DNA of 64,000 nucleotides from Parcubacteria group bacterium (GCA_016204045.1 JACQLQ010000001.1:193579-257578); one strand, 5' to 3'. Shown: positions 7,366 to 55,962, numbered from the stretch's first letter. A program made the numbers and translations. Notes: generated from the sequence alone by a model not told the origin.

Positions 7366-7367
7366 TG

Positions 7368-8324
7368 TTACACCCTGCCTTTCGCAGACAATTTATTCAA
7401 CATGTCCGCAACCATTGGCTCTAGATCAAATACGTGATTCCAACCCCACTCATGACGTGCAGCGGAATCATCGAGGGACTGTGGCCATGAATCCGCAATG
7501 GCTTGCCGAGCCGGATCAATCTTGTAGGTCATCCTGAAGGTCGGAATGAAGTTCCTGATCTCTAGGGCAAGTTCCCGGGGAGTGAAGCTCATGGCGGTAA
7601 CGTTGAATCCGTTACGGTGCATGAGTCGTGTCTCGGGAGCCTCCATGAGTTCAATGGCGGCGCGTACAGCATCGGGCATGTAGATCATCGGGAGCGCAGT
7701 CTCTGGCTTCAGATAGCATTCGTAGTGCCCGCGAGTGAGGGCCGCCTTGAAGATTTCTACTGCGTAGTCTGTCGTGCCGCCGCCTGGCGTGTGGGACCAC
7801 GAAATGATCCCTGGGTAACGAATACCACGAGTGTCAACGCCATGGTGACGGTGATAATAGTCGCACAGAAGTTCCCCAGTCAACTTTGTAATCCCGTACA
7901 TTGTATTGGGGCGCTGAATCGTATCTTGTGGCGTATTCATCCGCGGCGAGAGTGGGCCGAAGGTGCCAATAGAGCTTGGAAAGAAGACTCGACATCTATG
8001 AGCACGAGCGGTTTCCAGGACATTCAACAGACCGTCCATGTTGACTCTCCATGCTCGTACCGGCTCCTTTTCCGCTACTGCCGAAAGCACTGCCGCGAGG
8101 TGAAAAATGGTGCCAACTCCGTAATCGACAACAACCTCATTGAGTTCGTCTTTGTCACTCGTGTCAAGGCGTCTCCACAATCCAACATGTTCAAGATCGT
8201 TCTTGTCGCTTGCTACCACGTTTCCATCGCCGTATCTCTGCCTAAGCGCTGTGGTCAGATCAGAACCAACCTGTCCCCCAGCCCCTGTTACCAAGATTTT
8301 TCCTGGCGTACTCATTTCGTTCAC
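7368..8324 (-). CDS. tdh: L-threonine 3-dehydrogenase (NAD-dependent epimerase/dehydratase-type TDH)
   Basis: N-terminal Rossmann motif ILVTGAGGQVGS and an SDR-extended fold. Operon partner of kbl (3-nt spacing). Confidence 0.75.
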   Translation of the reverse strand: MNEMSTPGKILVTGAGGQVGSDLTTALRQRYGDGNVVASDKNDLEHVGLWRRLDTSDKDELNEVVVDYGVGTIFHLAAVLSAVAEKEPVRAWRVNMDGLLNVLETARAHRCRVFFPSSIGTFGPLSPRMNTPQDTIQRPNTMYGITKLTGELLCDYYHRHHGVDTRGIRYPGIISWSHTPGGGTTDYAVEIFKAALTRGHYECYLKPETALPMIYMPDAVRAAIELMEAPETRLMHRNGFNVTAMSFTPRELALEIRNFIPTFRMTYKIDPARQAIADSWPQSLDDSAARHEWGWNHVFDLEPMVADMLNKLSAKGRV

Positions 8325-10720: not shown

Positions 10721-10821
10721 ATTCGAACAAACAAAAGACCTCCATGGGTTTGACTGTGGAGGTCTTTTGTACTACAACAAAGGGCAGAAGGGGGTGTTTG
10801 CGCACCCCTAAGGAGGCAGAA

Positions 10822-12018
10822 ATGGCGCGCAGTTCTCGTATTGGCATCCTTCGCGAGCGCATGGATGGCGAGCACAGAGTGGCTCTCACACCCGATGGTG
10901 TTCGCGCGTTACGTGCAGATGGTCATATTGTCTATGTTGAGATGGGTGCTGGAGCGGGGTCAGGTTTCTCGGATGATGAATACAGAGCAGTTGGAGCTGC
11001 ACTCGCCCCCACCACTGAACATGTTGTTCGTAACTCAGGCGTTGTCGTCAAAGTAAAGGGTCTTCTTCCCGAAGAATCGCCACTACTCCCACTCCTTCAC
11101 GGCAAAACACTTTGTTGTTTTCCGCACTTTGCTGGTACATCAAGAGAGTGGCTACAACGTTTCTTGGACGAACAAATCACCGTGTTTGGTTACGAGACGG
11201 TCCGCGATGACAACGGGAGGTTCCCCATACTTGCTCCGATGAGCGCGATTGCAGGTGTTGCTGCTGTACAATACGGCGCGCACTATCTTCAGAAATATTG
11301 CGGCGGGCTCGGTGTCCTACTCGGGAATTTTTCACCCACCGGTCACATCATGACGCCGCGGATCCTCACGGATTTTCCAAGGGCACACGTCGTCATCATT
11401 GGAGGTGGTATTGCAGGATATCATGCCGCAGAGACTGCGTGTGGGGCGGGTGCCCTTGTTACCTTGTTTGAGAAAAACCCCGAGACGCGCAAATACCTAG
11501 CGGGGCATTATAGAAACAATCTAAATGTCATTGTTGCAGGAGATCATCCTGATAACAAAGACCTGTTTCCGCAGTCGCTTCAAAATGCAGACATGGTCGT
11601 GAGCGCTGTCGCAAGTCCGGGAGCTCACGCTCCAGTCGTTCTCACAAAAGAACGTGTGCGTTTGATGAAATGCGGAGCAGTTATTGTCGATATCGCTATT
11701 GATCAGGGTGGTTCGGTGGAAGGGATGGTGGGCCCCACGACACACAAGGAGCCCATACGTGTGCTGGAGAACAAAGTCTTATACTGCGCAATCCCCAATA
11801 TCCCAGGACAATTTCCTCGACAATCGACTCCCGCATTCTCACGAGCGCTTCTGCCAATTCTTTCGACACTTGCCGCGGAAGGGTTAACGCTAGGGGTACT
11901 AAGACATCCAGTCCTTGAGTCAGGTATCCAAACGCATACCGGGTTTATCACAAATGTGGCCGTTGCTAACGATCTTGGTATGGTAGACGGTTATCGCAAT
12001 GTAAGAGATGTTATCTAA
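10822..12018 (+). CDS. alanine dehydrogenase / PNT-family NAD(P)-binding dehydrogenase
   Basis: AlaDH/PNT N-domain and the VIIGGGIAGYHAAETA dinucleotide-binding motif. AAGGAGG Shine-Dalgarno before the ATG at 10822. Confidence 0.65.
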   Translation: MARSSRIGILRERMDGEHRVALTPDGVRALRADGHIVYVEMGAGAGSGFSDDEYRAVGAALAPTTEHVVRNSGVVVKVKGLLPEESPLLPLLHGKTLCCFPHFAGTSREWLQRFLDEQITVFGYETVRDDNGRFPILAPMSAIAGVAAVQYGAHYLQKYCGGLGVLLGNFSPTGHIMTPRILTDFPRAHVVIIGGGIAGYHAAETACGAGALVTLFEKNPETRKYLAGHYRNNLNVIVAGDHPDNKDLFPQSLQNADMVVSAVASPGAHAPVVLTKERVRLMKCGAVIVDIAIDQGGSVEGMVGPTTHKEPIRVLENKVLYCAIPNIPGQFPRQSTPAFSRALLPILSTLAAEGLTLGVLRHPVLESGIQTHTGFITNVAVANDLGMVDGYRNVRDVI

Positions 12019-14087: not shown

Positions 14088-14313
14088 CGACCCGTAGCTC
14101 AATTGGTTAGAGCACAGAGCTTCCAATGTCGAGCGAGGATGACAAAAACGAATACATGTGCCCGTAGCTCAATTGGTTAGAGCACAGAGCTTATACCTCT
14201 GCGGTTCCTGGTTCGAGTCCAGGCGGGCACACATTTGTTTTTGTCCCGAGCGAAGGCATTATATCAGTTTGTGATATACTCTGCGGTTCCTGGTTCGAGT
14301 CCAGGCGGGTCGA
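14088..14313 (+). tRNA. tRNA-like gene A, interrupted in the anticodon loop by a 152-nt insert (14126-14277) that contains a complete tRNA. If spliced at the canonical 37/38 position the anticodon would be UCC (Gly)
   Basis: 5' half at 14088-14125 with acceptor cgacccg. 3' half at 14278-14313 with acceptor cgggtcg, the exact reverse complement. D-arm, anticodon stem and T-arm are identical to the nested tRNA. Confidence 0.4.
14158..14231 (+). tRNA. tRNA with anticodon UAU (Ile, AUA-reading), nested inside the locus above
   Basis: Acceptor gtgcccg/cgggcac. D-arm gctc-aattggtta-gagc. Anticodon stem cagag/ctctg with loop cTTATac. T-arm cctgg-ttcgagt-ccagg. Discriminator A. Confidence 0.8.
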
Positions 14314-29856: not shown

Positions 29857-29921
29857 TTGTACAAAATTGCAGTGTGAGTCGGTCGGGATAGGAGCGACTA
29901 CTTTAGCTAAGTATCGCTGGA

Positions 29922-30365
29922 CTAAGAACCGGGAAGGTTCTTCGATATTTCCTTGTGCTCACTTATTCCCTTGGGTATATAATTACCCACTCTAAGAACA
30001 TGTCCGACCGCAGAAATGAAATTATATTTTCTTGCATATTTTATAAATTTTTTATTTTCCTCAATCATATTTTGTGCTTCAACGACTTTCCTAAAATTAT
30101 CAGCACCTTCGCCAAGAGTTTGGGGGGTTATGGATTTTTCAACCAATTGAACCATCTTTTCAAGTAATTTTTCTAGAAGTGGCAACGAGCGTTCTACTTC
30201 ATCGGCATGTGCATTTAATAATCTTTTTTCTTTCTTTGAAAATATATATATAAGAGTGGCGATTGGTGTTGCGCCACCTACCACAGTAAAAAATGAGAAC
30301 ACGAAAGGTACTGCAATATTATCCGCAACAAACCGTATTAACAGATTTAAGAAATTGGCCAGCAT
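29922..30365 (-). CDS. hypothetical protein with an N-terminal TM helix (147 aa)
   Basis: ORF in the AT-rich island with no recognisable domain. Confidence 0.45.
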   Translation of the reverse strand: MLANFLNLLIRFVADNIAVPFVFSFFTVVGGATPIATLIYIFSKKEKRLLNAHADEVERSLPLLEKLLEKMVQLVEKSITPQTLGEGADNFRKVVEAQNMIEENKKFIKYARKYNFISAVGHVLRVGNYIPKGISEHKEISKNLPGS

Positions 30366-30387
30366 GTTTATAAAATTTGATTAAGTT

Positions 30388-30430
30388 CACAATTTGCCCG
30401 GTCTCTCGGACGAGCGTTCAATCCTGCGGA
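30388..30430. repeat. copy 1 of an approximately 42-nt repeat (cccggtctctcg...tgcggagcgag) resembling a tRNA-Ser 3' end
   Basis: Second copy at 30788-30840. Both lie just upstream of small minus-strand ORFs. Confidence 0.5.
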
Positions 30431-30469
30431 GCGAGTGGAATTCAATTGCCTTTCGGGAATCCACTGATA

Positions 30470-30751
30470 TTAAGAGAAGTCAATAACCACTAGAACCACA
30501 GTGGCAACTGCTAAAATTATAGTGGCAACAGCTAAAGCCCTTGTCCATACCACTAATCTAGAAGATAGCTCAGATGAGGTTTGATTGAATTTTTCCATGT
30601 TCTTATTTAGTTGTTTTGCTTGATTTTCAACTTGTTGTATTGAAATAGTAAGAGCTATCATCGCGTTTGTAGTACCCGTTGTATCAGGGTGTGTACGTAT
30701 ATAGTTCCCGGCGGCAGTTATATAATTATCTATTTTCTTTTCCTTATCCAT
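30470..30751 (-). CDS. hypothetical tail-anchored protein (93 aa, start at MDKEKK)
   Basis: C-terminal TM helix. The longer ORF-track version would run across the tRNA-like repeat. Confidence 0.45.
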   Translation of the reverse strand: MDKEKKIDNYITAAGNYIRTHPDTTGTTNAMIALTISIQQVENQAKQLNKNMEKFNQTSSELSSRLVVWTRALAVATIILAVATVVLVVIDFS

Positions 30752-30787
30752 ACAAATATAGTTTACTAATTGATTATGACAAAGCAA

Positions 30788-30840
30788 CCCCGGTCTCTCG
30801 AGCGCGAAGTTACGATTTGCGGAGACGGGAGGGATAGAAC
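30788..30840. repeat. copy 2 of the approximately 42-nt repeat, including gcggagacgggagg, which is identical to the 3' acceptor/T-stem of tRNA-Ser at 33291-33304 (putative att remnant)
   Basis: Direct comparison with the tRNA-Ser gene 2.45 kb away, in the same orientation. Confidence 0.5.
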
Positions 30841-30924
30841 TCTTTGAGAACCCACGGTTCTCAACGTGGGGCTCCAGTCGGAAGATGCCCTCATCAGGTG
30901 AGCCCCCCTCTTTATCTGGGCACA

Positions 30925-31455
30925 TCAGGGAGTCTGTAAAATTACATCGCTACAGCTCCTCTCACTAAACCCCACCATTTCCAAATTTGAGGCGATCGTT
31001 TTTGAGATGTCGGTGAGGTCTTTGAATACTTGATTTTTTAGTTGGTCTACTGCACGCTGTCCTCCATCAATGCCGACAAAAGGCTCTTGATATTCAAGTC
31101 TCCCAAGTATTCTATTTGCGGCCTCCATGTTGTGTATTGTTGCAATTAAACTCTGCCTCGCAGAAACATCTTTCGCGTATTCGTTATTTATCATACTACC
31201 CCAATTAGAGAAATATTCATCTGTCCGATATCGCGTGTTCCAATTCCATGTTTGTCCCTCACTTTTTGTAAATAACGTGGCGACTCTGTGATTATAGCAA
31301 AATGTGGTTCGCAATGTATCATCGATTAAGTTTTCGTGCCCCAGATATTGCCACAGAGTAAGGGCTATTCCAACGACCACCAGAGTCGGTCCCCAATGTC
31401 GGAAGACAGAGTTTAAGTTTTCTGCAATAGAGCCCTCAGAATCAATTGGTTCCAT
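30925..31455 (-). CDS. hypothetical membrane-anchored protein (176 aa)
   Basis: ORF whose stop overlaps the downstream gene's start (ATGA). One TM helix. Confidence 0.5.
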   Translation of the reverse strand: MEPIDSEGSIAENLNSVFRHWGPTLVVVGIALTLWQYLGHENLIDDTLRTTFCYNHRVATLFTKSEGQTWNWNTRYRTDEYFSNWGSMINNEYAKDVSARQSLIATIHNMEAANRILGRLEYQEPFVGIDGGQRAVDQLKNQVFKDLTDISKTIASNLEMVGFSERSCSDVILQTP

Positions 31456-31583
31456 ATAGGTTCATGACCTTATTTACAATTTTTGTAGAGACAAAAGAGA
31501 TAGAACTGAACCACATAATATTTAAGAGTTTCTTGGGCCGCTTGCCATGTCTCGTTTTGGTGCGGCTCACTCGGCTATTTTAG

Positions 31584-32216
31584 TTACAAGTTTAAATTTA
31601 GAAGCGCCTCCTCGATCGTTGGTAATAATTTTAAGAAAGATTGAGGATTATTTGGGTCGACCCCAGACAAACTAATTGCCTGATTAACAGCGCCCTGAAT
31701 GTTTCCTTGCAATATCGTGTCTGGGTACTTAGACGCAAAATAGACATCGAATAAGCGAAACAACGGGACATTGTGTTTAGTGAGAAGTAGATACATGCGC
31801 GTTGAATCCATCATGTAATATTCTGTTGCCCCGAAGTTGAATTTAATTATTCCATCCGGATCTTTATCGGCGTGTTTAAAAAAGTTTTTGGCTGCATTTA
31901 TTGCTTTGAATACTTCATCCTTTTTTTCTGGCTTTACCCAATCGAGCAACTGGCCATGAACACTCTTTATCTTCTGTTTTTCTCCGATATCGTTCAAAAT
32001 TTGAAAAGCTGCACCCGCGAGTGTGTGTATCGCAATAGGGTCTCCGCCCCTAAAAAATAAATTTATAGCTGTTTCGAGCTGACGCTTGGCGGCGTCCAAT
32101 TTTGAAATATGTAATTCCATGATTTTTTTGTAGAAATCTTTGTTTGCGGGGACGTGAGGATGCGAACCTTTAATGTGGGACAGGAAGGAATACGTGCCCC
32201 TCTTTTTCAACAACAT
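31584..32216 (-). CDS. hypothetical protein (up to 210 aa; real start may be the internal MELHI)
   Basis: ORF in the AT-rich island. Confidence 0.45.
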   Translation of the reverse strand: MLLKKRGTYSFLSHIKGSHPHVPANKDFYKKIMELHISKLDAAKRQLETAINLFFRGGDPIAIHTLAGAAFQILNDIGEKQKIKSVHGQLLDWVKPEKKDEVFKAINAAKNFFKHADKDPDGIIKFNFGATEYYMMDSTRMYLLLTKHNVPLFRLFDVYFASKYPDTILQGNIQGAVNQAISLSGVDPNNPQSFLKLLPTIEEALLNLNL

Positions 32217-32685
32217 CTTTCAATGAAAGATCGTAAAACTTGACTCGTTTCCCATTGTCGAAGGTAATAAAGTATGGCTGACAGTACGGACCTTGGTCTT
32301 GTCTCCCCGACATCGCATCTTTGTGAATCCGAGCGAATTCTTCGAGCGTATCGCCAATGACGATACCGCAGTGCTCAAGACCGGGAGGGTATGGCACGTT
32401 TGGTTTCGGCGGCATGAGTTCGATCAAATCAACCCTGAAGCCGTTGAGCAAAGAAAGAGGTTCTCTGAGTAGCAACTTTGAGATTGGTCGTCCGTTGTGC
32501 TCATTTTCTACATATGAAACGCAATGCTTTTTTATATCCTCACGTAGTCGCTCGTATGCTTCAAAGGTTGTGGTACGGACGCCGAGATGACTTATGGCAT
32601 AGCCGGCAATATCAATCCCAAGCCCTTTGAGTCGACTGACTATATCTTGGAAAAACGATTTGTAGTCTCCGATGAGTTCTTCCAT
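32170..32685 (-). CDS. hypothetical protein (171 aa)
   Basis: ORF in the AT-rich island. No recognisable domain. Confidence 0.45.
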   Translation of the reverse strand: MEELIGDYKSFFQDIVSRLKGLGIDIAGYAISHLGVRTTTFEAYERLREDIKKHCVSYVENEHNGRPISKLLLREPLSLLNGFRVDLIELMPPKPNVPYPPGLEHCGIVIGDTLEEFARIHKDAMSGRQDQGPYCQPYFITFDNGKRVKFYDLSLKDVVEKEGHVFLPVPH

Positions 32686-32799
32686 AGTAAGTTTATTCTA
32701 TCTGCGGTGAGGGTTGGTTTAGAACCTTGCTCGTACAAGTATTGTAAGGGTTTTTTGAGCTTTTTCCTAGAGTGCAGCTTGACTGGAGTCGATCGCAAC

Positions 32800-33249
32800 T
32801 TAAAATAAGCGTTTGCATCTTCGAGATCCGCAGCCGCATTTAATCACTCCGCCACCTTTATATGAAAAATCAGCAGTTAGTTCCTCTCCCCCAAGGATTT
32901 TCTTCTTTGCGATCATCACTAATTTATCTAGTATCGTACAATTTGGGGTGCATGAATGATTTACAAAATCACCGGAGTCTAACTCCGTTGTACTCTTTTC
33001 AGCTAACCAAAAACCTGGGTAAACTTCGATAGCATAATTTGAGGAAATACGTCTGGGTAAACTCTCCAGCTCTTTCGATGTCATCGCGTGGCCACCCCAA
33101 ACAGCAACTACAGTACCTTTTTGCAACTCACTCGTAGCGAATAAACCTATCCCATGGATCGAGCTCGGTCGAACTTCTGTATTTGGAGATACATAGTTAT
33201 TTCTTCTGGGCTTTTCATTTATTCGTTTGATAATTCTTTTATAGTCCAT
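32800..33249 (-). CDS. SET-domain protein (putative protein-lysine methyltransferase) with a post-SET Cys cluster
   Basis: IHGIGLFA, NHSCTPNC and C-terminal CGCGSRRC motifs. Confidence 0.75.
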   Translation of the reverse strand: MDYKRIIKRINEKPRRNNYVSPNTEVRPSSIHGIGLFATSELQKGTVVAVWGGHAMTSKELESLPRRISSNYAIEVYPGFWLAEKSTTELDSGDFVNHSCTPNCTILDKLVMIAKKKILGGEELTADFSYKGGGVIKCGCGSRRCKRLF

Positions 33250-33289
33250 GCACGAGAATCACGCTTCGTAGAAGCTTCGAATGTAAAAC

Positions 33290-33381
33290 TTGGCGGAGAC
33301 GGGAGGATTCGAACCTCCGAGGGGGTTTAATCCCCCTAACTCCTTAGCACGGAGCCGGTTTCAACCACTCACCCACGTCTC
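33290..33381 (-). tRNA. tRNA-Ser (GCU), type II with a long variable arm and CCA encoded
   Basis: Reverse complement reads GGAGACG-tg-ggtg...gctcc-gtGCTaa-ggagt-tagggggattaaaccccct-cggag-gttcgaat-cctcc-cgtctcc-G-CCA. Confidence 0.85.
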
Positions 33382-33448
33382 CAATCCACACAAAATAGCA
33401 CATTTTTCTGGCGATTTAAACCTTGCGCCCAGAGCCTGACCGTGTAGA

Positions 33449-47371: not shown

Positions 47372-49907
<2,536 letters not shown>

Positions 49908-49976: not shown

Positions 49977-51482
49977 ATGGATTGGCGGACGATTGTCGAT
50001 CCCATGGCGTATCATACCCCGTCTTTTTTCCGAGAAGGTGTCTATGCTCACCCTTCGGGAGAGCGGTTCACTATTGTCCACCCTGCTACAGGTGAGCGAG
50101 TCTGCACCTTCCACGTCGGAGATGCCCACAATACGACATTTGCTGTGTCCGTTGCAGATCGTGCTTTTCGTGAAAGCGGGTGGGCAAAGGCATCGCGCTT
50201 CGAACGCGCGGGGGCACTGATTAAGCTAGCCCAGTTGCTACGAGCAAACAAGGAACGTCTCGGAACACTTGAGGCGCTCCAAACAGGCAAACTTCTTTCG
50301 GAGTGTGTTGGTCACGACGCAGATCGTGCGGCGCAGAACTTCGAGATGTTTGCTAAAGCAGTCGGAGGTGGCGACCTCAAGGAAGAAGTTCTCGAGCAAG
50401 AAACAGCATTTCTAGATCGGAAAGGTCGCGCTTCGACAACGGTCTACCGCAATGCGGTTGGAGTCGTGGGCATCATCATTCCATGGAATAGCCCGCTCAT
50501 GCTTTCCTCATGGCATGTGGCGCCAGCTCTTGCTGTAGGAAACACGGTGGTCTTGAAACTTCCGTTGTGGGCGCCTCTCGCGGTGCTTGAGCTTGGTAAG
50601 CTAGCCAACGAGGCGGGGATTCCTCCTGGGGTCTTCAACATCATTGTCGGAGACAAAGAAGCAGGCGAAGCACTAGTTGCTGATCCGCGTGTAAAGCGCA
50701 TCTCGTTTACCGGCAGCGTCCCTGTTGGGAAGGCGATCAATGTCGCAAACGCGAAAGTGCGCCTTACTCCGCCAATGCTCGAGCTGGGCGGCAAGGGAGC
50801 GAACATTGTCTTCAGCGATGCATCTCTCGACGCGGTCAAGGGTGTCGCGCGAAGCATCTGGAGAAGCCAAGGGCAGTCCTGTGTTGCGGGTTCTCGTCTC
50901 TTGCTCCAAGAAGGCATCTATGATGATTTTATGCAGCGACTTAAGGATTACACCGCAAGTCTTCGCATTGGCAATCACATGGAGCACGGCACTGAGATTG
51001 GCCCGGTCATTACAAGGAAACACCGCGATCGGGTAATGGAGATGATTGAGATGGCAAAAGGGGAGGGTGCGCGCCTCTCTCATGGCGGCACGGTCCTTGT
51101 AGGAGAAGGGTGCGCAAACGGAAACTTCGTTGTGCCAACGATCTTTGAAGAAGTAACGCCAGAGATGCGGATTTTCCAAGAAGAAGTGTTTGGTCCGGTG
51201 CTTACCGTAACGCCGTTTGCTGATGCGAATGATGCCATCACGCTCGCGAATGCGACGCCATTCGGTCTTTCCTCGAACGTGTGGTCAAGCGATGTGGGTT
51301 TCGCACATGGCGTTGCCCAGAGCATTGAGGCGGGCATGGTGTGGGTCAACTCCCATTTTGTCCGCGATCTCCGAGCGCCTTTTGGTGGGGTTAAGGACAG
51401 CGGCACTGGTCGCGCAGGTGGAAAGTGGAGCTTGGAATATTTTACCGAGCCGCAGATGATCTGCGATTTCGTGCCAAACTAA
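49977..51482 (+). CDS. NAD(P)-dependent aldehyde dehydrogenase
   Basis: ALDH motifs FTGSVPVGKAI, ELGGKGANIVF and catalytic Cys region GQSCVAGSR. GGAG Shine-Dalgarno upstream. Confidence 0.85.
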   Translation: MDWRTIVDPMAYHTPSFFREGVYAHPSGERFTIVHPATGERVCTFHVGDAHNTTFAVSVADRAFRESGWAKASRFERAGALIKLAQLLRANKERLGTLEALQTGKLLSECVGHDADRAAQNFEMFAKAVGGGDLKEEVLEQETAFLDRKGRASTTVYRNAVGVVGIIIPWNSPLMLSSWHVAPALAVGNTVVLKLPLWAPLAVLELGKLANEAGIPPGVFNIIVGDKEAGEALVADPRVKRISFTGSVPVGKAINVANAKVRLTPPMLELGGKGANIVFSDASLDAVKGVARSIWRSQGQSCVAGSRLLLQEGIYDDFMQRLKDYTASLRIGNHMEHGTEIGPVITRKHRDRVMEMIEMAKGEGARLSHGGTVLVGEGCANGNFVVPTIFEEVTPEMRIFQEEVFGPVLTVTPFADANDAITLANATPFGLSSNVWSSDVGFAHGVAQSIEAGMVWVNSHFVRDLRAPFGGVKDSGTGRAGGKWSLEYFTEPQMICDFVPN

Positions 51483-51538
51483 AGTAAAAGAAAATACCCT
51501 CCGATTAGAATCGGAGGGCTTTTATTTTATGCGATGTC

Positions 51539-52453
51539 TTATGCTGCGATAGTCTCGCGCAATATTGCTAGATTCTTCCGTAACTGCGGCTCGAAGTCGT
51601 TTTTGGGTAGCATATACGGTGCGCGTGGCTTCCCCATGTCGATACCCGTGACAATGGATGCAGCGAGCTTTGTCGACCCGACATGTCGCTGGTTGTCCTC
51701 TCCACCGCGGGGGAAGGTGATATTGGTCTGGTTCTGGATATCCTCGATTTTGCGGTGGACAACAGATCTCCCCGTCTTGTCGAAGATGCGCCACATGGCG
51801 ACCACGGCCTCAAGTGCAAAGATGTTCACGAAGCCGCCACCAGAACCAAGGACCAGTCCTGTGGAAAATGCTCGGAATGTCGTGAAAATTGGAACGACCC
51901 CACCCACCTCAATGAACAAAGGCTCGAGATGCGATTGCCGATCAGTCTTTACTTCTTTCATTCCCACAACACCGGGGATGCGCACGAGCCTACCAGCAAA
52001 TTCTGGAGAAATACTCACTTTGGAGAGCTTTGGATTATGGTACACCACAACGGGGAGGCCTAAGGCCGCCACCTCGCTGAAGTGTTGGAACACTTCGTCT
52101 TTGTCGGGCACCCAATAATATGGGGGAACGACCTGCGCCGCCATGTACCCGAGATCTCTTGCCCTTTTCGTGTGGGTGCGGATCTTCCAAAGGCATGTGT
52201 CAGCAGTGGTCGCGATAAGGCGAAGCCGTGGGTGGTATTTTGCGACATGGTTGGCGCAAACGCCGAAGCATGCCCACCGCTCGATGTCATCGAGACAAGC
52301 GAATTCACCAATACTTGGTGTTACCACAATTCCATCGGCACCGTGTGTTGCGCACCAGTCGATCTCTGCGCGAAGGGCGCCGTAATCGATGCGCCCCTCT
52401 TCATCCATGGGCGTGACAAGCATCGCGTAGATGCCATGAGGAAGGCGATTCAT
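51539..52453 (-). CDS. DapA-family (dihydrodipicolinate synthase / N-acetylneuraminate lyase-like) class I aldolase
   Basis: N-terminal LVTPMDEEG...GADGIVV pattern and a Schiff-base lysine region. Confidence 0.7.
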   Translation of the reverse strand: MNRLPHGIYAMLVTPMDEEGRIDYGALRAEIDWCATHGADGIVVTPSIGEFACLDDIERWACFGVCANHVAKYHPRLRLIATTADTCLWKIRTHTKRARDLGYMAAQVVPPYYWVPDKDEVFQHFSEVAALGLPVVVYHNPKLSKVSISPEFAGRLVRIPGVVGMKEVKTDRQSHLEPLFIEVGGVVPIFTTFRAFSTGLVLGSGGGFVNIFALEAVVAMWRIFDKTGRSVVHRKIEDIQNQTNITFPRGGEDNQRHVGSTKLAASIVTGIDMGKPRAPYMLPKNDFEPQLRKNLAILRETIAA

Positions 52454-52536
52454 ACGTTTCCTCTACCACATCTTTCTGTCTGAAATGTGTTCTTTTTTGA
52501 TCTGTTTGTCAAGAAAAAACCACCAGTGTGGTGGTA

Positions 52537-53406
52537 TCAATGCGGTACATCGAACCAAAGATTCACTTGGCCCGTGCCGACAGCGGCCTCGTATTCGCCC
52601 AACTGCTCGGCCTTAAGTGTGCAATACTGCCCGCCGAGCGTACCTACCATGCGGAGGTAGTGCGAGAAGCGACCCTCTGGTGAGGCAACGCGGCGATATG
52701 CGGGGGCAAGGTCAATGACCCTCTCATGTCGCCCGGCTTTCAGAAGTTCAATAATCTGTTCATCCATCGCTCTATTCTCGGGAGGAATGTTTGCCAAGTC
52801 AGGTGAAGCTTTTTGGAAAAGCTCATCAAATGGATGGAATTTATGGGAGAGGCCTCCAGACGCGACCAATACGACACGGCGACCACTTTTCCCGATGGCT
52901 TCGCGGATGGCAGCCCCGAGATCGAGATCGTTTTGCACCGACGTCGTGAAGTTGTTGCTAATGGGGAGAACTCGTCGTTTCTTCCTCGTGTTTAGGAAGT
53001 GCATCGGCACAAGTGTTGGATAGTGGTATGGCAGGTGTTTCTCTGTCGACCGCATGACTCGGATCAAAAACCGCATGTCGTTAGCCGTGTACCCGATTTC
53101 CTCTGCAAGCTCTGGGTCACCAGGGTAGTCGAAGCGGAGATCGTGTATCATAGTGGGCACTTCTTCCGAGGTGTAGATTCCTCGGTGGCGTGCCCGACCG
53201 TCAACCACAATGTGCGTGAGTGCATTCCAGTGCGTATCAAAGACGATGAAGGTGTCGAACTCTAGCGCCGCAAGCTTCTCTTTAATGCGCGCGTAAGCGT
53301 CGAAAAAAGTAGTACCCTTGCCTTGCGTGTATCTCGCTCGCTCCTCCGCCGACATCATAAGTCGTGGAATATGCGAAAGAAGCACGGCACCTACGATTTC
53401 GCCCAT
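52537..53406 (-). CDS. putative class III extradiol ring-cleavage dioxygenase (LigB-family catalytic subunit-like)
   Basis: N-terminal LLSHIP His motif, and DTHW followed by a GGLSHKF pattern. Assignment is by motif resemblance only. Confidence 0.4.
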   Translation of the reverse strand: MGEIVGAVLLSHIPRLMMSAEERARYTQGKGTTFFDAYARIKEKLAALEFDTFIVFDTHWNALTHIVVDGRARHRGIYTSEEVPTMIHDLRFDYPGDPELAEEIGYTANDMRFLIRVMRSTEKHLPYHYPTLVPMHFLNTRKKRRVLPISNNFTTSVQNDLDLGAAIREAIGKSGRRVVLVASGGLSHKFHPFDELFQKASPDLANIPPENRAMDEQIIELLKAGRHERVIDLAPAYRRVASPEGRFSHYLRMVGTLGGQYCTLKAEQLGEYEAAVGTGQVNLWFDVPH

Positions 53407-53478
53407 TGTGTTTTTGCCCCGCTCTCTGCCGTCAGACTAACTGTTTTCCAAGGTGGCGTCAAACAAAAAGCGCAAAGA

Positions 53479-54099
53479 TTACTTTGCGCTAGTCTTCAAA
53501 CTATCCAATATGCGACGGGGGATGAAGACTCCATGGTGTTCTTCTCGCGCCGCCTCCTCGACGTCGTGGTAGAGATCCCGGGCGAAATCGGAGGAGAAAC
53601 TGTCGCCTGAAGAAAAAGTACTACCCACTTGTGGTCGCTCTACGAATTCAAAAAATGGGGCTTCGTCTGACGGCAGTCTTTCGTCAAAGGGATATCCAAA
53701 AATCTGTTTTATTTCGCCACCCCACGGATCCTGACGTTGCAGAAGTTCACCCAGGAAACCGACACCCCTCTCCCTTGATTCATCGAGGAATGCCGCAATG
53801 TTCTTTATTGCCACAGCGATATGCTGGATGCTGTGATCCCCATGTCGTTCGACATACTTTGTGACCTGAGATTTTTCTTCACGGTCGATTCCTGCGATGA
53901 GAGCAATGGATAGATTGCCTGCCTTGATGCCGCAGAGCCGCATACTTGAACTGCCGCCAGGGTTTGCATCCGCAATGTCATAGAATACTCGCCCGCCGAA
54001 GATTTTTGTCCAAACCCCCTTCCATGAGTCGAATGTCTCTTGCATTACCGCAATAGCGACGTGGTCCACCCCAAGGATTTCCCAATTGCGAGAGGACAT
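53479..54099 (-). CDS. VOC-superfamily (glyoxalase / extradiol dioxygenase-like) protein
   Basis: VDHVAIAV and HIAVAIKNI beta-alpha-beta-beta-beta module signatures. Confidence 0.55.
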   Translation of the reverse strand: MSSRNWEILGVDHVAIAVMQETFDSWKGVWTKIFGGRVFYDIADANPGGSSSMRLCGIKAGNLSIALIAGIDREEKSQVTKYVERHGDHSIQHIAVAIKNIAAFLDESRERGVGFLGELLQRQDPWGGEIKQIFGYPFDERLPSDEAPFFEFVERPQVGSTFSSGDSFSSDFARDLYHDVEEAAREEHHGVFIPRRILDSLKTSAK

Positions 54100-54224
54100 T
54101 CGTCTCTCCGCGCGAAGGATTCTTCCTGTGTTGTATCACGGGGTCGTAGACTGTACACTTGACAGGCGTCCGTTTTGTCTTCCTCTCTGATGTTTTTTTT
54201 GTTACTATAAGAGATATATCGTGT

Positions 54225-54506
54225 ATGGAAAAGACTGAAATCCAACATCTCGCAGAACTTGCGCGAGTAAAGATTACCGACACACAACTAGAAGCGCTTC
54301 GAGGGGACCTAGGAGCGATTTTGAACTATGTCTCGAAGATAAAAGAGGTGAGCGGAGACACCTCTGGGGTAAGTGATCTGGGTCTTGTGCGCAACGTAAT
54401 GCGTGAAGACGGAGAGCCGCACGAGAGCGGAGTCTATTCTGAAGACTTGCTTGCCGAGGTGCCACAGCGTGAGGGGCAGTATATCAAAGTCAAAAAGATT
54501 CTTTAA
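54225..54506 (+). CDS. gatC: Asp/Glu-tRNA(Asn/Gln) amidotransferase subunit C
   Basis: 93 aa beginning MEKTEIQHLAELARVKITDTQLEAL, typical of GatC. Upstream of gatA. Confidence 0.8.
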   Translation: MEKTEIQHLAELARVKITDTQLEALRGDLGAILNYVSKIKEVSGDTSGVSDLGLVRNVMREDGEPHESGVYSEDLLAEVPQREGQYIKVKKIL

Positions 54507-54519
54507 GCTCTTATTTCTG

Positions 54520-55962
54520 ATGAAGATCGCATTACAAGAACTCACAATTTCAAAAGCGCGCGAGGGGCTACTAAGGGGCGAGTTTAGCGCTCGCGATTTA
54601 ACCACGGCCTATCTGAAGCGCGTCGAGGAGGGGAATGGCGAGATTAACGCATACCTCGAGGTTTTTGACGACGCTGAATCACAAGCGAAGGAGGCGGACA
54701 AAGTCATAAAGGCAAAAGGCGCCGAAAGCCCGATGCTTTGCGGCATCCCACTCGCAATCAAGGACAATATTCTCATCAAAGGGCGAAAAGTGTCAGCCGC
54801 TTCAAAGATTTTGGAAGGGTATCGTGCGACGTATGATGCGACCGCAATAATGCGACTTAAGAAACACCATTCCGTTTTTCTTGGTCGTGCGAATATGGAC
54901 GAGTTTGCGATGGGCGCCTCAACCGAAAACTCCGCTTTCGGTGTAGTAAGGAACCCGCATGACCAAACACGTGTCGCGGGCGGTTCCTCGGGTGGGTCAG
55001 CAGCGGCTGTTGCCGCAGATTTCGCCCTCGCGGCACTTGGATCTGACACTGCAGGTTCTGTACGCCAACCCTCTGCCTTTTGTGGCACAGTGGGCCTCAA
55101 GCCGACGTACGGAAGCGTTTCCCGCTCCGGCCTCATCGCCATGGGCTCATCGCTCGATGTCATCGGCCCCATCGGCAAGACAGTCGAAGATTGTAAACTC
55201 ATTTTCAAAGCAATAGCCGGTCAAGACCCGCTCGACAGCACCTCTATTGAGGCCTCGCCAGCGACTGATGAATTGCGCCGCCCCCTTGTCATAGGAGTTC
55301 CGGGGGATTTCGTGAAGAACGGAGTTGACGAAGACATTTCGGCGAACTTCTTGGAAATAGTCGCCAAACTTGAACGTGCCGGTATCGCAAAGGTAAAAGA
55401 AATCAGCCTTCCGCTCCTGCCGTATTCTTTGCCCGCGTATTACACGATCATTCCTGCAGAAGTGTCCACCAACCTTGCACGTTTTGATGGTGTAAAGTAC
55501 GGAGCGTACAAGGGCGGGAGCTCTCTCCTCGCAGACTACCTGGAGACGCGTGCTCTGTTTGGCCACGAAGCACATCGGAGGATTTTGCTCGGCACGTATG
55601 TGCTCTCTGCGGGGCATGCCGATGCGTATTACAACAAAGCAACCGCTGTGCGCGCGCTTGTGCGCAAGGAGTTGTGCGCCGTGTTTGCGGGAGAAGAAGC
55701 GGTTGACGTTATCATGACCCCCACGACTCCGACACCCGCTTTCTCCATAGGAGAGAAGTCGCAGGACCCGCTCTCTATGTATCTCGCAGATATTTTTACC
55801 GTCATTGCGAACATTGCCGGCGTTCCTGCTTTGTCAGTCCCATCGGGCACGACACTTCGAGACGGAAAGAAGCTTCCGCTAGGCATACAGTTTATGGCGG
55901 CCCACAGGAACGAAGCCGCCCTGTTCGCTGCTGGAGTCGCAATCGAGCAAATCAGATCGTAA
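54520..55962 (+). CDS. gatA: Glu-tRNA(Gln) amidotransferase subunit A (amidase signature family)
   Basis: Amidase signature GGSSGGSAAAV. The catalytic Ser-cisSer-Lys triad context is present. Confidence 0.9.
   Translation: MKIALQELTISKAREGLLRGEFSARDLTTAYLKRVEEGNGEINAYLEVFDDAESQAKEADKVIKAKGAESPMLCGIPLAIKDNILIKGRKVSAASKILEGYRATYDATAIMRLKKHHSVFLGRANMDEFAMGASTENSAFGVVRNPHDQTRVAGGSSGGSAAAVAADFALAALGSDTAGSVRQPSAFCGTVGLKPTYGSVSRSGLIAMGSSLDVIGPIGKTVEDCKLIFKAIAGQDPLDSTSIEASPATDELRRPLVIGVPGDFVKNGVDEDISANFLEIVAKLERAGIAKVKEISLPLLPYSLPAYYTIIPAEVSTNLARFDGVKYGAYKGGSSLLADYLETRALFGHEAHRRILLGTYVLSAGHADAYYNKATAVRALVRKELCAVFAGEEAVDVIMTPTTPTPAFSIGEKSQDPLSMYLADIFTVIANIAGVPALSVPSGTTLRDGKKLPLGIQFMAAHRNEAALFAAGVAIEQIRS

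What the first reader, a model, noticed from the sequence alone, without database searches (positions are those of the whole stretch)
49977..54099. GC-rich block of catabolic-type enzymes unusual for a reduced genome
Four adjacent genes encode an aldehyde dehydrogenase, a DapA-family class I aldolase/lyase, a protein with LigB-type extradiol dioxygenase-like motifs, and a VOC (glyoxalase/dioxygenase fold) protein. The segment looks more GC-rich than the neighbouring pilus and gatCA genes. Together these resemble a fragment of a ring-cleavage or keto-acid catabolic pathway (for example semialdehyde dehydrogenase plus aldolase plus dioxygenase). Such a pathway is unexpected next to a minimal translation and pilus gene set, and is a candidate for horizontal acquisition.
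Basis: inference. Interest (0 to 1): 0.5.

Follow-up and report, generated by a model that had tools for sequence, protein, structure and literature searches.

The report
Aromatic ring-cleavage cassette in a Parcubacterium
A tiny-genome groundwater bacterium (Parcubacteria) carries an intact, anciently inserted four-gene cassette for oxygen-dependent cleavage of a tyrosine-derived catechol (homoprotocatechuate type), built partly from two uncharacterised enzyme families, which is unusual for this lineage but is a variant of a well-known pathway.

Summary
The four genes are real, intact and at the stated coordinates. They are an aldehyde dehydrogenase (ALDH; 49977-51482, +), a DHDPS/NAL-family class I aldolase (51539-52453, -), a LigB-type extradiol dioxygenase (52537-53406, -) and a 206-aa VOC protein (53479-54099, -). 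The VOC protein is a stand-alone copy of the catalytic domain of 4-hydroxyphenylpyruvate dioxygenase (HPPD) / hydroxymandelate synthase.

The nearest characterised relatives are the homoprotocatechuate (HPC, 3,4-dihydroxyphenylacetate) meta-cleavage enzymes HpaD and HpaE. None of the four reaches an equivalog cut-off.

Context in other genomes points to HPC as the substrate:
- In 60 related loci, mostly Binatia, the LigB dioxygenase, usually with ALDH and the aldolase, lies near a true HpaB-1 monooxygenase.
- In one genome LigB is replaced by a non-homologous type I HpaD.

The GC excess is small (53.2% against 49.2%) and codon usage is ordinary. The block is nevertheless an insertion. In 52 related Parcubacteria loci ligA is followed by gatCA, directly in 44, and none has the block. 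Three genomes share the insertion, and its genes have diverged about as much as the flanking housekeeping genes.

The acquisition is therefore old and has since been inherited vertically. HpaB and HpaF/G/H are absent, so the roles of the mini-HPPD and the aldolase are inferred. I rate it a new variant of a known kind, of moderate interest.

The parts
49977..51482 (+). NAD(P)-dependent aldehyde dehydrogenase, 501 aa. It is closest to the 5-carboxymethyl-2-hydroxymuconate semialdehyde (HpaE) and arylacetaldehyde dehydrogenases.
   Evidence: Pfam Aldedh, E 1.4e-149. Best NCBIfam hit is HpaE at 452 bits, below the cut-off of 638. Best solved structures are 4o5h (phenylacetaldehyde dehydrogenase) and 2d4e (Thermus CHMS dehydrogenase). 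N171, E269 and C302 are present.
51496..51519 (.). Bidirectional terminator-like hairpin with T-runs on both sides, lying between the convergent ALDH and aldolase genes.
   Evidence: Consensus scan and inverted repeat I1. This is a pattern match only.
51539..52453 (-). DHDPS/NAL-family class I (Schiff-base) pyruvate aldolase, 304 aa, of a distinct uncharacterised subfamily. It is not DapA.
52537..53406 (-). LigB-type (class III) extradiol ring-cleavage dioxygenase, 289 aa. It is closest to Fe-dependent 3,4-dihydroxyphenylacetate 2,3-dioxygenase.
   Evidence: Pfam LigB, 131.7 bits. HpaD_Fe scores 180 bits, below the cut-off of 316. The nearest solved structure is 8iq8 (3,4-DHPA 2,3-dioxygenase), E 9e-29 over the full length. 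H12, H59, H188 and E244 are invariant in 20 homologues.
53479..54099 (-). Single-domain VOC protein, 206 aa ('mini-HPPD'). It is a stand-alone equivalent of the C-terminal catalytic domain of 4-hydroxyphenylpyruvate dioxygenase / hydroxymandelate synthase, with a complete 2-His-1-Glu iron site.
   Evidence: Glyoxalase_4, 30.2 bits. It matches positions 155-264 of the 353-position 4HPPD model. The AF2 model has pLDDT 91.5. Foldseek top hits are HPPD 3isq and hydroxymandelate synthases 7yvv and 2r5v, with TM about 0.7 over the whole protein. The family profile aligns H13, H93 and E151 to DH, QH and FxExxxR of rat HPPD 1sqi, which from my knowledge are the Fe ligands H183/H266/E349.
54204..54231 (-). 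Sigma-70-like promoter match upstream of the VOC-LigB-aldolase gene string, in the divergent region shared with gatC.
   Evidence: Consensus scan, 9 of 12 positions matched. Fewer sites were found than expected by chance, so this is weak.
47832..49907 (+). ligA (NAD-dependent DNA ligase), the left border of the insertion.
   Evidence: Precomputed Pfam domains of the orthologues. In 44 of 52 related loci ligA is followed within 400 bp by gatC.
54219..55962 (+). gatC-gatA, the right border of the insertion.
   Evidence: Pfam GatC and Amidase in the orthologous loci. tblastn results.

Best explanation
The block is a compact, functional catabolic cassette for oxygen-dependent meta-cleavage of a homoprotocatechuate-type catechol (3,4-dihydroxyphenylacetate).

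Proposed steps:
1. The LigB-type dioxygenase opens the ring to a muconate semialdehyde.
2. The ALDH oxidises the semialdehyde to the diacid.
3. The DHDPS-like class I aldolase releases pyruvate from the resulting 2-oxo acid. Because no HpaF/G/H genes accompany the cassette, it probably acts as a hydratase-aldolase or on a spontaneously tautomerised intermediate. The products would be pyruvate plus a succinate-semialdehyde-type fragment.
4. The mini-HPPD most likely acts at the entry of the route on an aromatic 2-oxo acid such as 4-hydroxyphenylpyruvate from tyrosine. It takes the place that the HpaB monooxygenase occupies in the Binatia version of the operon.

Origin: the cassette was inserted into the conserved ligA-gatCA junction in an ancestor of a small Parcubacteria subclade near Kaiserbacteria. 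It has since been inherited vertically under purifying selection and has taken on host composition.

Shown: the gene families, intact active sites, the conserved cassette, the association with HPC-specific enzymes in other genomes, and the insertion. Inferred: the exact substrate and the roles of the aldolase and the mini-HPPD.

Cassette conservation:
- The same VOC>LigB>aldolase> <ALDH cassette, in the same order, occurs in two other Parcubacteria at the same ligA|gatC junction.
- It also occurs in contigs titled Saccharibacteria (L011, L015) and in a 'Deltaproteobacteria' MAG (L007).
- ALDH, LigB and the aldolase are found together in most of the 82 related loci.

Link to homoprotocatechuate:
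- In 60 related loci, mostly Binatia, an HpaB homologue lies near the LigB gene. The representative scanned passes the equivalog cut-off for 4-hydroxyphenylacetate 3-monooxygenase HpaB-1 (574 bits against 480).
- In L180 the mini-HPPD (35% identical, E 9e-31), the aldolase (57%) and the ALDH accompany a non-homologous type I dioxygenase instead of LigB. That dioxygenase passes the HpaD equivalog cut-off (389.7 bits against 321.4).

Entry-step role of the mini-HPPD:
- VOC and HpaB never co-occur next to the dioxygenase: 6 loci have VOC only, 60 have HpaB only, and none has both.
- A distant VOC homologue sits next to prephenate dehydrogenase, which makes 4-hydroxyphenylpyruvate.
- Three others are divergently transcribed from AsnC/Lrp regulators.

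Insertion and long residence:
- Of 52 related loci with gatC downstream of ligA, none has the block and 44 have ligA and gatC adjacent.
- The three block-bearing genomes form an exclusive clade in the LigA tree.
- dN of the block genes is 0.14-0.21, against 0.11-0.23 for the flanking genes, and dS is saturated.
- Block GC follows host GC in four genomes.
Against: - None of the four proteins reaches the curated equivalog score of HpaD_Fe, HpaE, DapA-type HpaI or HPPD. They are sister subfamilies whose substrates are untested.
- HpaF/G/H equivalents were not found in the cassette or among the conserved neighbours. The rest of the genome could not be searched.
- The ALDH scores almost as well against phenylacetaldehyde dehydrogenases, so it could act before ring cleavage.
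- Known HPPD-type chemistry yields homogentisate or hydroxymandelate, not a 3,4-catechol.
- The VOC/HpaB exclusivity rests on few independent lineages.
- The GatA tree does not recover the three block-bearing genomes as a clade.
- No aromatic aminotransferase or transporter is linked to the cassette.
Confidence: 0.62

Rival explanations
1. The architecture is the same but the substrate is different. The cassette would cleave another catechol or aminophenol, for example 2-aminophenol (the AmnB / 2-aminomuconate semialdehyde dehydrogenase type), DOPA, protocatechuate or 2,3-dihydroxyphenylpropionate, rather than homoprotocatechuate.
For: LigB also matches the 2-aminophenol 1,6-dioxygenase beta subunits (E 4e-16 to 1e-12). 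The ALDH matches the 2-aminomuconate and 2-hydroxymuconate semialdehyde dehydrogenases nearly as well as it matches HpaE. All equivalog cut-offs are missed.
Against: The HPC-specific enzymes score best for both proteins. Amn-type enzymes need an alpha subunit, and none is present. Two enzymes that do pass equivalog cut-offs, HpaB-1 and type I HpaD, are embedded in the homologous cassettes.
Confidence: 0.15
2. The mini-HPPD works downstream of ring cleavage, not at the entry. It would be a metal-dependent tautomerase or decarboxylase acting on the 2-oxo / 2-hydroxy acid end of the cleavage product. It would stand in for HpaF/HpaG, so that the four genes alone convert imported homoprotocatechuate to pyruvate and succinate semialdehyde.
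For: No HpaF/G/H are found in or near any cassette. VOC-fold enzymes include isomerases, and methylmalonyl-CoA epimerase is the second-best model. The ring-cleavage intermediates carry the 2-oxo-acid group that HPPD-type iron sites bind (established HPPD chemistry; inference).
Against: Stand-alone members of the same family occur without any ring-cleavage genes: next to prephenate dehydrogenase or AsnC/Lrp regulators. The best sequence and structure matches are the O2-using HPPD and hydroxymandelate synthase, with the Ser/Gln motifs around the iron site retained. The Binatia operons lack the VOC protein yet keep the same aldolase.
Confidence: 0.15
3. The block is a recently transferred island, or an assembly or binning artefact, that does not belong to the Parcubacteria genome.
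For: It is the most GC-rich 4.1-kb stretch of the window. Close homologues are abundant in non-CPR phyla.
Against: The same junctions (ligA-ALDH and VOC-gatC) appear in independent assemblies and sequencing runs of three organisms. Codon usage is typical. Block GC tracks each host. Divergence matches that of the flanking genes. There are no flanking repeats or mobility genes. The CPR sequences form their own clade in the LigB, aldolase and ALDH trees.
Confidence: 0.03
4. The role is detoxification or oxygen scavenging rather than carbon and energy catabolism. The cassette would remove reactive catechols or quinone precursors, or O2 itself, at the interface with the host cell.
For: Parcubacteria have little central metabolism to use the products (established knowledge of the group). 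CPR genomes from oxic groundwater are reported to carry scattered O2-consuming enzymes, including catechol 2,3-dioxygenase and one HPPD (PMC12577380).
Against: A full dioxygenase-dehydrogenase-aldolase series ending in pyruvate is more than detoxification needs. Long-term purifying selection acts on all four genes. The window also encodes an alanine-dehydrogenase-like protein that could use pyruvate.
Confidence: 0.08

Closest known systems
Homoprotocatechuate (hpa/hpc) meta-cleavage pathway of E. coli W/C and Thermus thermophilus (HpaB/C, HpaD/HpcB, HpaE, HpaF, HpaG, HpaH, HpaI)
   Same: It uses a LigB-type Fe dioxygenase and an NAD-dependent semialdehyde dehydrogenase of the same families, followed by a pyruvate-releasing aldolase. 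The homologous operons in Binatia include a true HpaB-1.
   Different: There is no HpaB/C, HpaF, HpaG or HpaH in the cassette. The dioxygenase and dehydrogenase fall below the equivalog cut-offs. The aldolase is class I (DHDPS fold), not the class II HpcH/HpaI enzyme. An HPPD-like protein is added. The host is a reduced-genome Parcubacterium.
4-hydroxyphenylpyruvate dioxygenase (HPPD) and hydroxymandelate synthase (HmaS, AcmP1)
   Same: The fold matches the catalytic C-terminal domain, with the 2-His-1-Glu iron site and the flanking motifs SSM, SQV, QH, KQIF and F-E-F-x-x-R.
   Different: It has a single domain of about 206 aa instead of two domains of about 350-390 aa. It scores 46.9 bits against the cut-off of 277. 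The family is small: 52 clusters at E<=1e-30 among 1.84 billion representatives. It is linked to an extradiol pathway rather than to homogentisate dioxygenase. The product is unknown.
DapA-type HpaI (NCBIfam TIGR02313, Thermus/Oceanobacillus) and the DHDPS-fold hydratase-aldolases NahE and PhdJ
   Different: It scores 76.8 bits against the TIGR02313 cut-off of 396.7. It is structurally as close to the KDG and HOGA aldolases as to PhdJ. It has its own signature motifs (PSIGEF, PPYYW, YHNPxLSK, FPRGGE). Hydratase activity is only inferred.
Tyrosine catabolism through homoprotocatechuate in Gram-positive bacteria, with the orphan enzyme 4-hydroxyphenylpyruvate oxidase
   Same: It is a route from a tyrosine-derived 2-oxo acid to homoprotocatechuate and then extradiol cleavage. 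The genes for the entry steps are unknown (PMC9007349; PMC2991359).
   Different: No family member was found in Arthrobacter or other classical hosts of that pathway. The link is a hypothesis.
2-aminophenol pathway (AmnAB dioxygenase and AmnC 2-aminomuconate semialdehyde dehydrogenase)
   Same: It pairs a LigB-type dioxygenase with an ALDH of the muconate-semialdehyde group.
   Different: Only one LigB gene is present, with no alpha subunit. Scores are weaker than for the HPC enzymes. There is no deaminase.

Membership tests
LigB superfamily (class III extradiol dioxygenases, PF02900) | Profile match above the gathering score over the full domain | tested here: met
   131.7 bits against a cut-off of 26.3, covering residues 7-285.
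LigB superfamily (class III extradiol dioxygenases, PF02900) | 2-His-1-Glu metal site plus a catalytic His | tested here: met
   H12, H59, E244 and H188 are invariant in 20 homologues and align with the corresponding residues of 8iq8. Which residue plays which role is from my knowledge of LigAB.
HpaD_Fe (TIGR02298, 3,4-dihydroxyphenylacetate 2,3-dioxygenase equivalog) | Score at or above the curated equivalog cut-off | tested here: not met
   180 bits against 315.95. It is the best hit by far, aligned end to end. The Binatia orthologue scores 178 bits.
HpaE (TIGR02299, CHMS dehydrogenase equivalog) | Score at or above the curated equivalog cut-off | tested here: not met
   452.3 bits against 638.35. 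It is the best of 40 ALDH models. The general ALDH family and the catalytic N171/E269/C302 are met.
DapA (4-hydroxy-tetrahydrodipicolinate synthase, TIGR00674) | Equivalog score, and the Arg that binds aspartate semialdehyde (E. coli R138) | tested here: not met
   88.9 bits against 206.15. The R138 position is an invariant Leu. The Schiff-base Lys and the Tyr residues are kept, so this is a class I aldolase but not DapA.
DapA-type HpaI (TIGR02313) | Score at or above the curated cut-off | tested here: not met
   76.8 bits against 396.7.
HPPD / hydroxymandelate synthase (TIGR01263) | Two VOC domains (about 350 aa) and the equivalog score | tested here: not met
   The protein has a single domain of 206 aa. 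It scores 46.9 bits against 277 and matches only model positions 155-264.
HPPD / hydroxymandelate synthase (TIGR01263) | Catalytic-domain fold with the His-His-Glu iron triad | tested here: met
   Foldseek top hits are 3isq, 7yvv and 2r5v, with probability 1.00 and TM about 0.7. H13, H93 and E151 align to the rat HPPD ligand motifs.
HPPD / hydroxymandelate synthase (TIGR01263) | O2- and 2-oxo-acid-dependent turnover of 4-hydroxyphenylpyruvate | not testable with these tools
   This needs an enzyme assay.
Complete hpa/hpc homoprotocatechuate pathway | Presence of the isomerase, decarboxylase and hydratase (HpaF, HpaG, HpaH) and of the hydroxylase HpaB/C | tested here: not met
   None is in the cassette or among the conserved neighbours of the related loci. 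There is no HpaB in the window by tblastn. The rest of the 387-kb contig and of the genome was not available.
Horizontally acquired genomic island | Presence at a site that is uninterrupted in relatives | tested here: met
   None of 52 related loci with gatC downstream of ligA has the block. In 44 the gap is 400 bp or less.
Horizontally acquired genomic island | Deviant composition or codon usage, mobility genes, flanking repeats | tested here: not met
   Per-gene z(GC) is 1.2 or less and codon usage is typical. GC tracks each host. There are no flanking repeats or integrase/IS genes.

The most novel reading that the evidence does not exclude
The 206-aa mini-HPPD is a new kind of HPPD-type oxygenase. 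It would convert 4-hydroxyphenylpyruvate plus O2 directly into homoprotocatechuate plus CO2. Alternatively it is the long-sought 4-hydroxyphenylpyruvate oxidase.

Together with the LigB dioxygenase, the ALDH and a DHDPS-fold hydratase-aldolase, it would form a four-enzyme tyrosine-to-pyruvate/succinate route. That route would bypass both HpaBC and HpaFGH. This would explain why the entry genes of the tyrosine-homoprotocatechuate pathway have never been found.
Probability: 0.13. Interest if true: 0.8.

Novelty: new variant of a known kind. Interest (0 to 1): 0.5.

Why it matters
Parcubacteria are thought to be fermentative episymbionts with almost no catabolic breadth. This cassette is intact, selected and O2-dependent, and it ends in pyruvate. 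It would show that some groundwater members can draw carbon from tyrosine- or plant-derived phenolics, and that such traits enter these genomes by insertion into housekeeping gene strings and then persist.

For enzymology, the cassette singles out two uncharacterised families: a single-domain HPPD-like oxygenase and a DHDPS-like aldolase. Their gene neighbours are HPC-pathway enzymes (HpaD- and HpaE-like, with a true type I HpaD in L180). That makes the orphan entry steps of the tyrosine-homoprotocatechuate pathway, and a possibly shortened lower pathway, directly testable with four small soluble proteins.

Tried and rejected
- Memo-like identity of the LigB ORF: rejected. The AmmeMemoRadiSam B model scores 15.7 bits against 180 bits for HpaD_Fe.
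- DapA + ALDH as a sugar-acid or hydroxyproline (KdgD/KGSADH) pair unrelated to the dioxygenase: rejected. ALDH, LigB and the aldolase are found together at related loci across phyla, and the KdgD scores are weak.
- Compositional evidence for HGT: GC, GC3 and codon log-likelihood show no real anomaly.
- dN/dS: dS is saturated even against the closest relative, so only dN could be compared.
- Exact look-up of the window's LigB protein: nothing on record. The VOC look-up returned only short Logan contigs, so the rest of the genome could not be searched for HpaF/G/H, HpaB/C or a tyrosine aminotransferase.
- Discriminating aldolase from hydratase-aldolase by profile or structure: DHDPS, NAL, KDG aldolase, HOGA and PhdJ all score similarly.
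- Flanking repeats or insertion scars: none.
- Literature: no paper on this cassette in CPR was found. There is one KEGG-level mention of catechol 2,3-dioxygenase and HPPD genes in Paceibacteria MAGs.
- Mini-HPPD members in Arthrobacter or other classical hosts of the tyrosine-HPC pathway: none seen. The family members are almost all unnamed MAG proteins.
- GatA tree as a second test of monophyly of the block-bearing genomes: unresolved.

Full report
**1. What is in the sequence**

The region 49977-54099 holds four intact ORFs:
- an aldehyde dehydrogenase (ALDH) on the + strand, 49977-51482, 501 aa. Its ATG is preceded by GGAGA.
- three genes on the - strand, transcribed towards it: a 206-aa VOC protein (54099-53479), a 289-aa LigB-family protein (53406-52537) and a 304-aa DHDPS-family protein (52453-51539).

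A hairpin with T-runs on both sides (51496-51519) separates the convergent gene ends.

All four match their Pfam families above the gathering scores.

The window comes from a Parcubacteria MAG. The identical LigB and VOC proteins are on record from a 387-kb contig of a 'Parcubacteria group bacterium'. The surrounding genes are type IV pilus genes, ligA, gatCA, tRNAs and a tmRNA.

**2. Composition**

- The block is 53.2% GC against 49.2% for the rest of the window. It is the most GC-rich 4.1-kb stretch.
- The excess is small. Per-gene z-scores are 0.3-1.2 for GC and 0-1.15 for GC3.
- Synonymous codon usage is fully typical of the window.
- gatA next door is 54% GC.
- In the other genomes that carry the cassette, its GC moves with the host: about 0.49-0.55 in L001, 0.56-0.61 in the Kaiserbacteria contig, and 0.46-0.52 in L011. 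gatA is as GC-rich as the block enzymes in the two of these loci that include it (L001, L003).

The GC signal therefore reflects what enzyme-coding genes look like in these genomes, not foreign origin.

**3. What the proteins are**

*LigB protein*
- It aligns end to end with the Fe-type 3,4-dihydroxyphenylacetate 2,3-dioxygenase model (180 bits). No other model comes close, and the Memo-related model scores 15.7 bits.
- It also aligns with the solved 3,4-dihydroxyphenylacetate 2,3-dioxygenase 8iq8 (E 9e-29).
- H12, H59, H188 and E244 are invariant in 20 homologues.

*ALDH*
- It has the catalytic N171, E269 and C302.
- It scores best against HpaE (452 bits). Among solved structures it scores best against a phenylacetaldehyde dehydrogenase and the Thermus CHMS dehydrogenase.

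*DHDPS-like protein*
- It keeps the Schiff-base lysine (K166) and the tyrosines.
- It has an invariant leucine where DapA has the arginine that binds aspartate semialdehyde.
- Its confident model (pLDDT 94) is about equally close to KDG aldolase YagE, 4-hydroxy-2-oxoglutarate aldolase, sialate lyases and the hydratase-aldolase PhdJ.
- It is a pyruvate-dependent class I aldolase of its own subfamily.

*VOC protein*
- It is the most unusual of the four. Its whole length corresponds to the C-terminal catalytic domain of HPPD / hydroxymandelate synthase. The model has pLDDT 91.5, and the Foldseek top hits are 3isq, 7yvv and 2r5v with TM about 0.7.
- The family profile aligns its invariant H13, H93 and E151 with the DH, QH and F-x-E-x-x-x-R motifs of rat HPPD.
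- The family is small: 52 clusters at E<=1e-30 among 1.84 billion representatives. It consists almost entirely of unnamed MAG proteins.

None of the four reaches an NCBIfam equivalog cut-off. Their substrates therefore rest on context.

**4. Context in other genomes**

A scan of species-representative genomes with a LigB alignment gave 80 loci.

- tblastn found ALDH, LigB and the aldolase together at most of the related loci.
- In 60 of the loci, mostly Binatia, an HpaB homologue lies near the LigB gene. In most of them the order is ALDH-LigB-aldolase followed by the HpaB-family gene. The representative scanned passes the equivalog cut-off for 4-hydroxyphenylacetate 3-monooxygenase HpaB-1 (574 bits against 480).
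- The four-gene form with the VOC protein, in the same order and orientation as in the window, occurs in two other Parcubacteria, in contigs titled Saccharibacteria, and in a 'Deltaproteobacteria' MAG.
- In neighbour-joining trees of LigB, the aldolase and ALDH, these VOC-type cassettes form one clade, separate from the Binatia/Eremiobacterota/Acidobacteriota clade.
- In L180 the mini-HPPD (35% identical), the aldolase (57%) and the ALDH accompany a type I (VOC-fold) dioxygenase instead of LigB. That dioxygenase passes the HpaD equivalog cut-off (389.7 bits against 321.4).

There are thus two independent associations with enzymes that do qualify as specific for homoprotocatechuate. One is a non-orthologous replacement of the ring-cleaving enzyme itself. 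Together they make homoprotocatechuate the best-supported substrate, and they show that the mini-HPPD and the aldolase are functional partners of the pathway.

**5. How it probably works**

The following steps follow from established hpa/hpc chemistry:
1. Extradiol cleavage of 3,4-dihydroxyphenylacetate to CHMS by LigB.
2. Oxidation of CHMS to the diacid by the ALDH.
3. Release of pyruvate by the aldolase.

No isomerase, decarboxylase or hydratase (HpaF/G/H) is present in any cassette or among the conserved neighbours.

I infer that the class I aldolase hydrates and cleaves the unsaturated 2-oxo acid directly, as NahE and PhdJ do for other substrates. The beta-formyl acid released would then lose CO2 to give succinate semialdehyde. 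This is chemically reasonable but untested.

For the mini-HPPD I favour an entry role on an aromatic 2-oxo acid, for four reasons:
- It is never found together with HpaB next to the dioxygenase: 6 loci have VOC only, 60 have HpaB only, and none has both. The lineages are few, so this is weak evidence.
- A distant member lies next to prephenate dehydrogenase, which makes 4-hydroxyphenylpyruvate.
- Three others are divergently transcribed from AsnC/Lrp regulators, typical of amino-acid catabolic genes.
- Its closest relatives are O2- and 2-oxo-acid-dependent oxygenases.

The difficulty is that known HPPD-type enzymes make homogentisate or hydroxymandelate, not a 3,4-catechol.

The tyrosine-homoprotocatechuate route of Gram-positive bacteria has entry enzymes whose genes are unknown. 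GapMind omitted that pathway 'due to a lack of knowledge' (PMC9007349). In Arthrobacter arilaitensis the genes for 4-hydroxyphenylpyruvate oxidase and for the 3-monooxygenase 'were not located' (PMC2991359). The mini-HPPD family is a candidate for that gap, but I found no member in those organisms.

**6. Origin**

- A metagenome scan with the window's LigA returned 80 related loci at 46-63% identity.
- In 52 of them gatC lies downstream of ligA on the same strand. The gap is 400 bp or less in 44. Eight have other, unrelated small insertions. None has the dioxygenase block.
- The block is therefore an insertion into a conserved ligA-gatCA string, a junction that has also accepted other cargo.
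- The window, L001 and the Kaiserbacteria contig share the insertion with identical gene order.
- Protein identities of the block genes to the window are 72-81% (L001) and 47-56% (Kaiserbacteria). The flanking genes are at 67-82% and 48-62%.
- dN values are comparable and dS is saturated.
- The three genomes form an exclusive clade in the LigA tree, although not in the less resolved GatA tree.
- There are no flanking repeats or mobility genes.
- The same junctions are seen in independent sequencing runs, which excludes an assembly artefact.

The simplest history is one old acquisition followed by vertical descent. The source was probably another CPR-type or groundwater bacterium carrying the VOC-type cassette.

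**7. Comparison with what is known, and novelty**

The system works like the homoprotocatechuate meta-cleavage pathway. It is not a member of the curated HpaD_Fe, HpaE, DapA-type HpaI or HPPD families.

A 2025 study lists catechol 2,3-dioxygenase genes in seven Paceibacteria MAGs and an HPPD gene in one (PMC12577380). O2-using aromatic enzymes in the group have therefore been noticed at the annotation level. I found no description of this cassette, of the single-domain HPPD-like family, or of the aldolase subfamily.

I rate it a new variant of a known kind. It has moderate interest for CPR biology: a selected, O2-dependent catabolic trait inserted among housekeeping genes. It also offers a testable lead for two uncharacterised enzyme families.

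**8. Limits**

- Only 64 kb of the genome could be read.
- Taxon names of the loci are those in the record titles. One contig length (17,692 bp) appears both under a Saccharibacteria title and under a 'Parcubacteria group' protein name.
- The trees are single-gene neighbour-joining trees without support values.
- All functional assignments beyond family level are inferences.

Noticed in passing
window 29900-33400: This is a low-GC stretch (genes at 0.36-0.46 GC) that ends at tRNA-Ser(GCT) at 33291-33382. The 25-nt 3' end of that tRNA recurs in degenerate form (72-84% identity) at 30816, 31482, 32143 and 32701. The copies are spaced 558-666 bp apart, with roughly one small ORF per interval; two copies lie inside ORF ends. 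The ORFs are hypotheticals, a YecM-like protein and a SET-domain protein. It looks like serial integrations at the tRNA, or a cassette array. It is a better candidate for recent HGT than the dioxygenase block.
   Followed up: partly
L102, L114, L115, L126, L136, L144, L147, L159 (between ligA and gatC): In 8 of 52 related Parcubacteria loci the ligA-gatC junction holds other, unrelated insertions of 0.6-3.5 kb. By eye, from their N-terminal sequences, these include an asparaginase-like gene, membrane proteins and a large glycosyltransferase-like protein. The junction appears to be a recurrent insertion site.
   Followed up: partly
L180 7359-12025: In another genome (GCA_028277945, 514-kb contig) the cassette has a type I extradiol dioxygenase that qualifies as HpaD (TIGR02295) in place of LigB. 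This is a non-orthologous displacement within an otherwise homologous gene set.
   Followed up: yes
window 6139-8324 and 10744-12018: Further amino-acid-related enzymes are present in this reduced genome. They are a Kbl/BioF-family acyltransferase (best hit glycine C-acetyltransferase) next to an SDR of the epimerase family, which may be a threonine dehydrogenase/Kbl pair, and an alanine-dehydrogenase-like protein. All are below the NCBIfam equivalog cut-offs.
   Followed up: partly
window 14158-14232: ARAGORN calls a tRNA-Ile with anticodon TAT. This is uncommon in bacteria, which usually read AUA with a lysidine-modified CAT tRNA (the rarity is from my own knowledge).
   Followed up: no
L011 13784-15151 and L015 14269-15612: In the two contigs titled Saccharibacteria a class III aminotransferase of the ornithine/GABA/putrescine type lies just beyond the ALDH gene. 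It could connect to a semialdehyde product, or it could be mere synteny. No homologue is present in the window.
   Followed up: partly
proteins P0001, P0002, P0010, P0011 and others: NCBI names for this LigB subfamily read 'catechol 1,2-dioxygenase'. That name denotes an intradiol enzyme of an unrelated fold, so the annotation is misleading.
   Followed up: no
L015 (CAYRXD010000024.1, 17,692 bp): The record title says Candidatus Saccharibacteria. The VOC protein on a contig of the same length is named 'Parcubacteria group bacterium' in nr (P0132). The taxonomic label of the 'Saccharibacteria' cassettes is therefore uncertain.
   Followed up: no
L092 7001-8602: In Leptolyngbya sp. a mini-HPPD homologue is immediately followed by prephenate dehydrogenase. 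An NRPS-like gene lies 1.3 kb upstream on the opposite strand. This may be a small tyrosine-derived biosynthetic unit.
   Followed up: no
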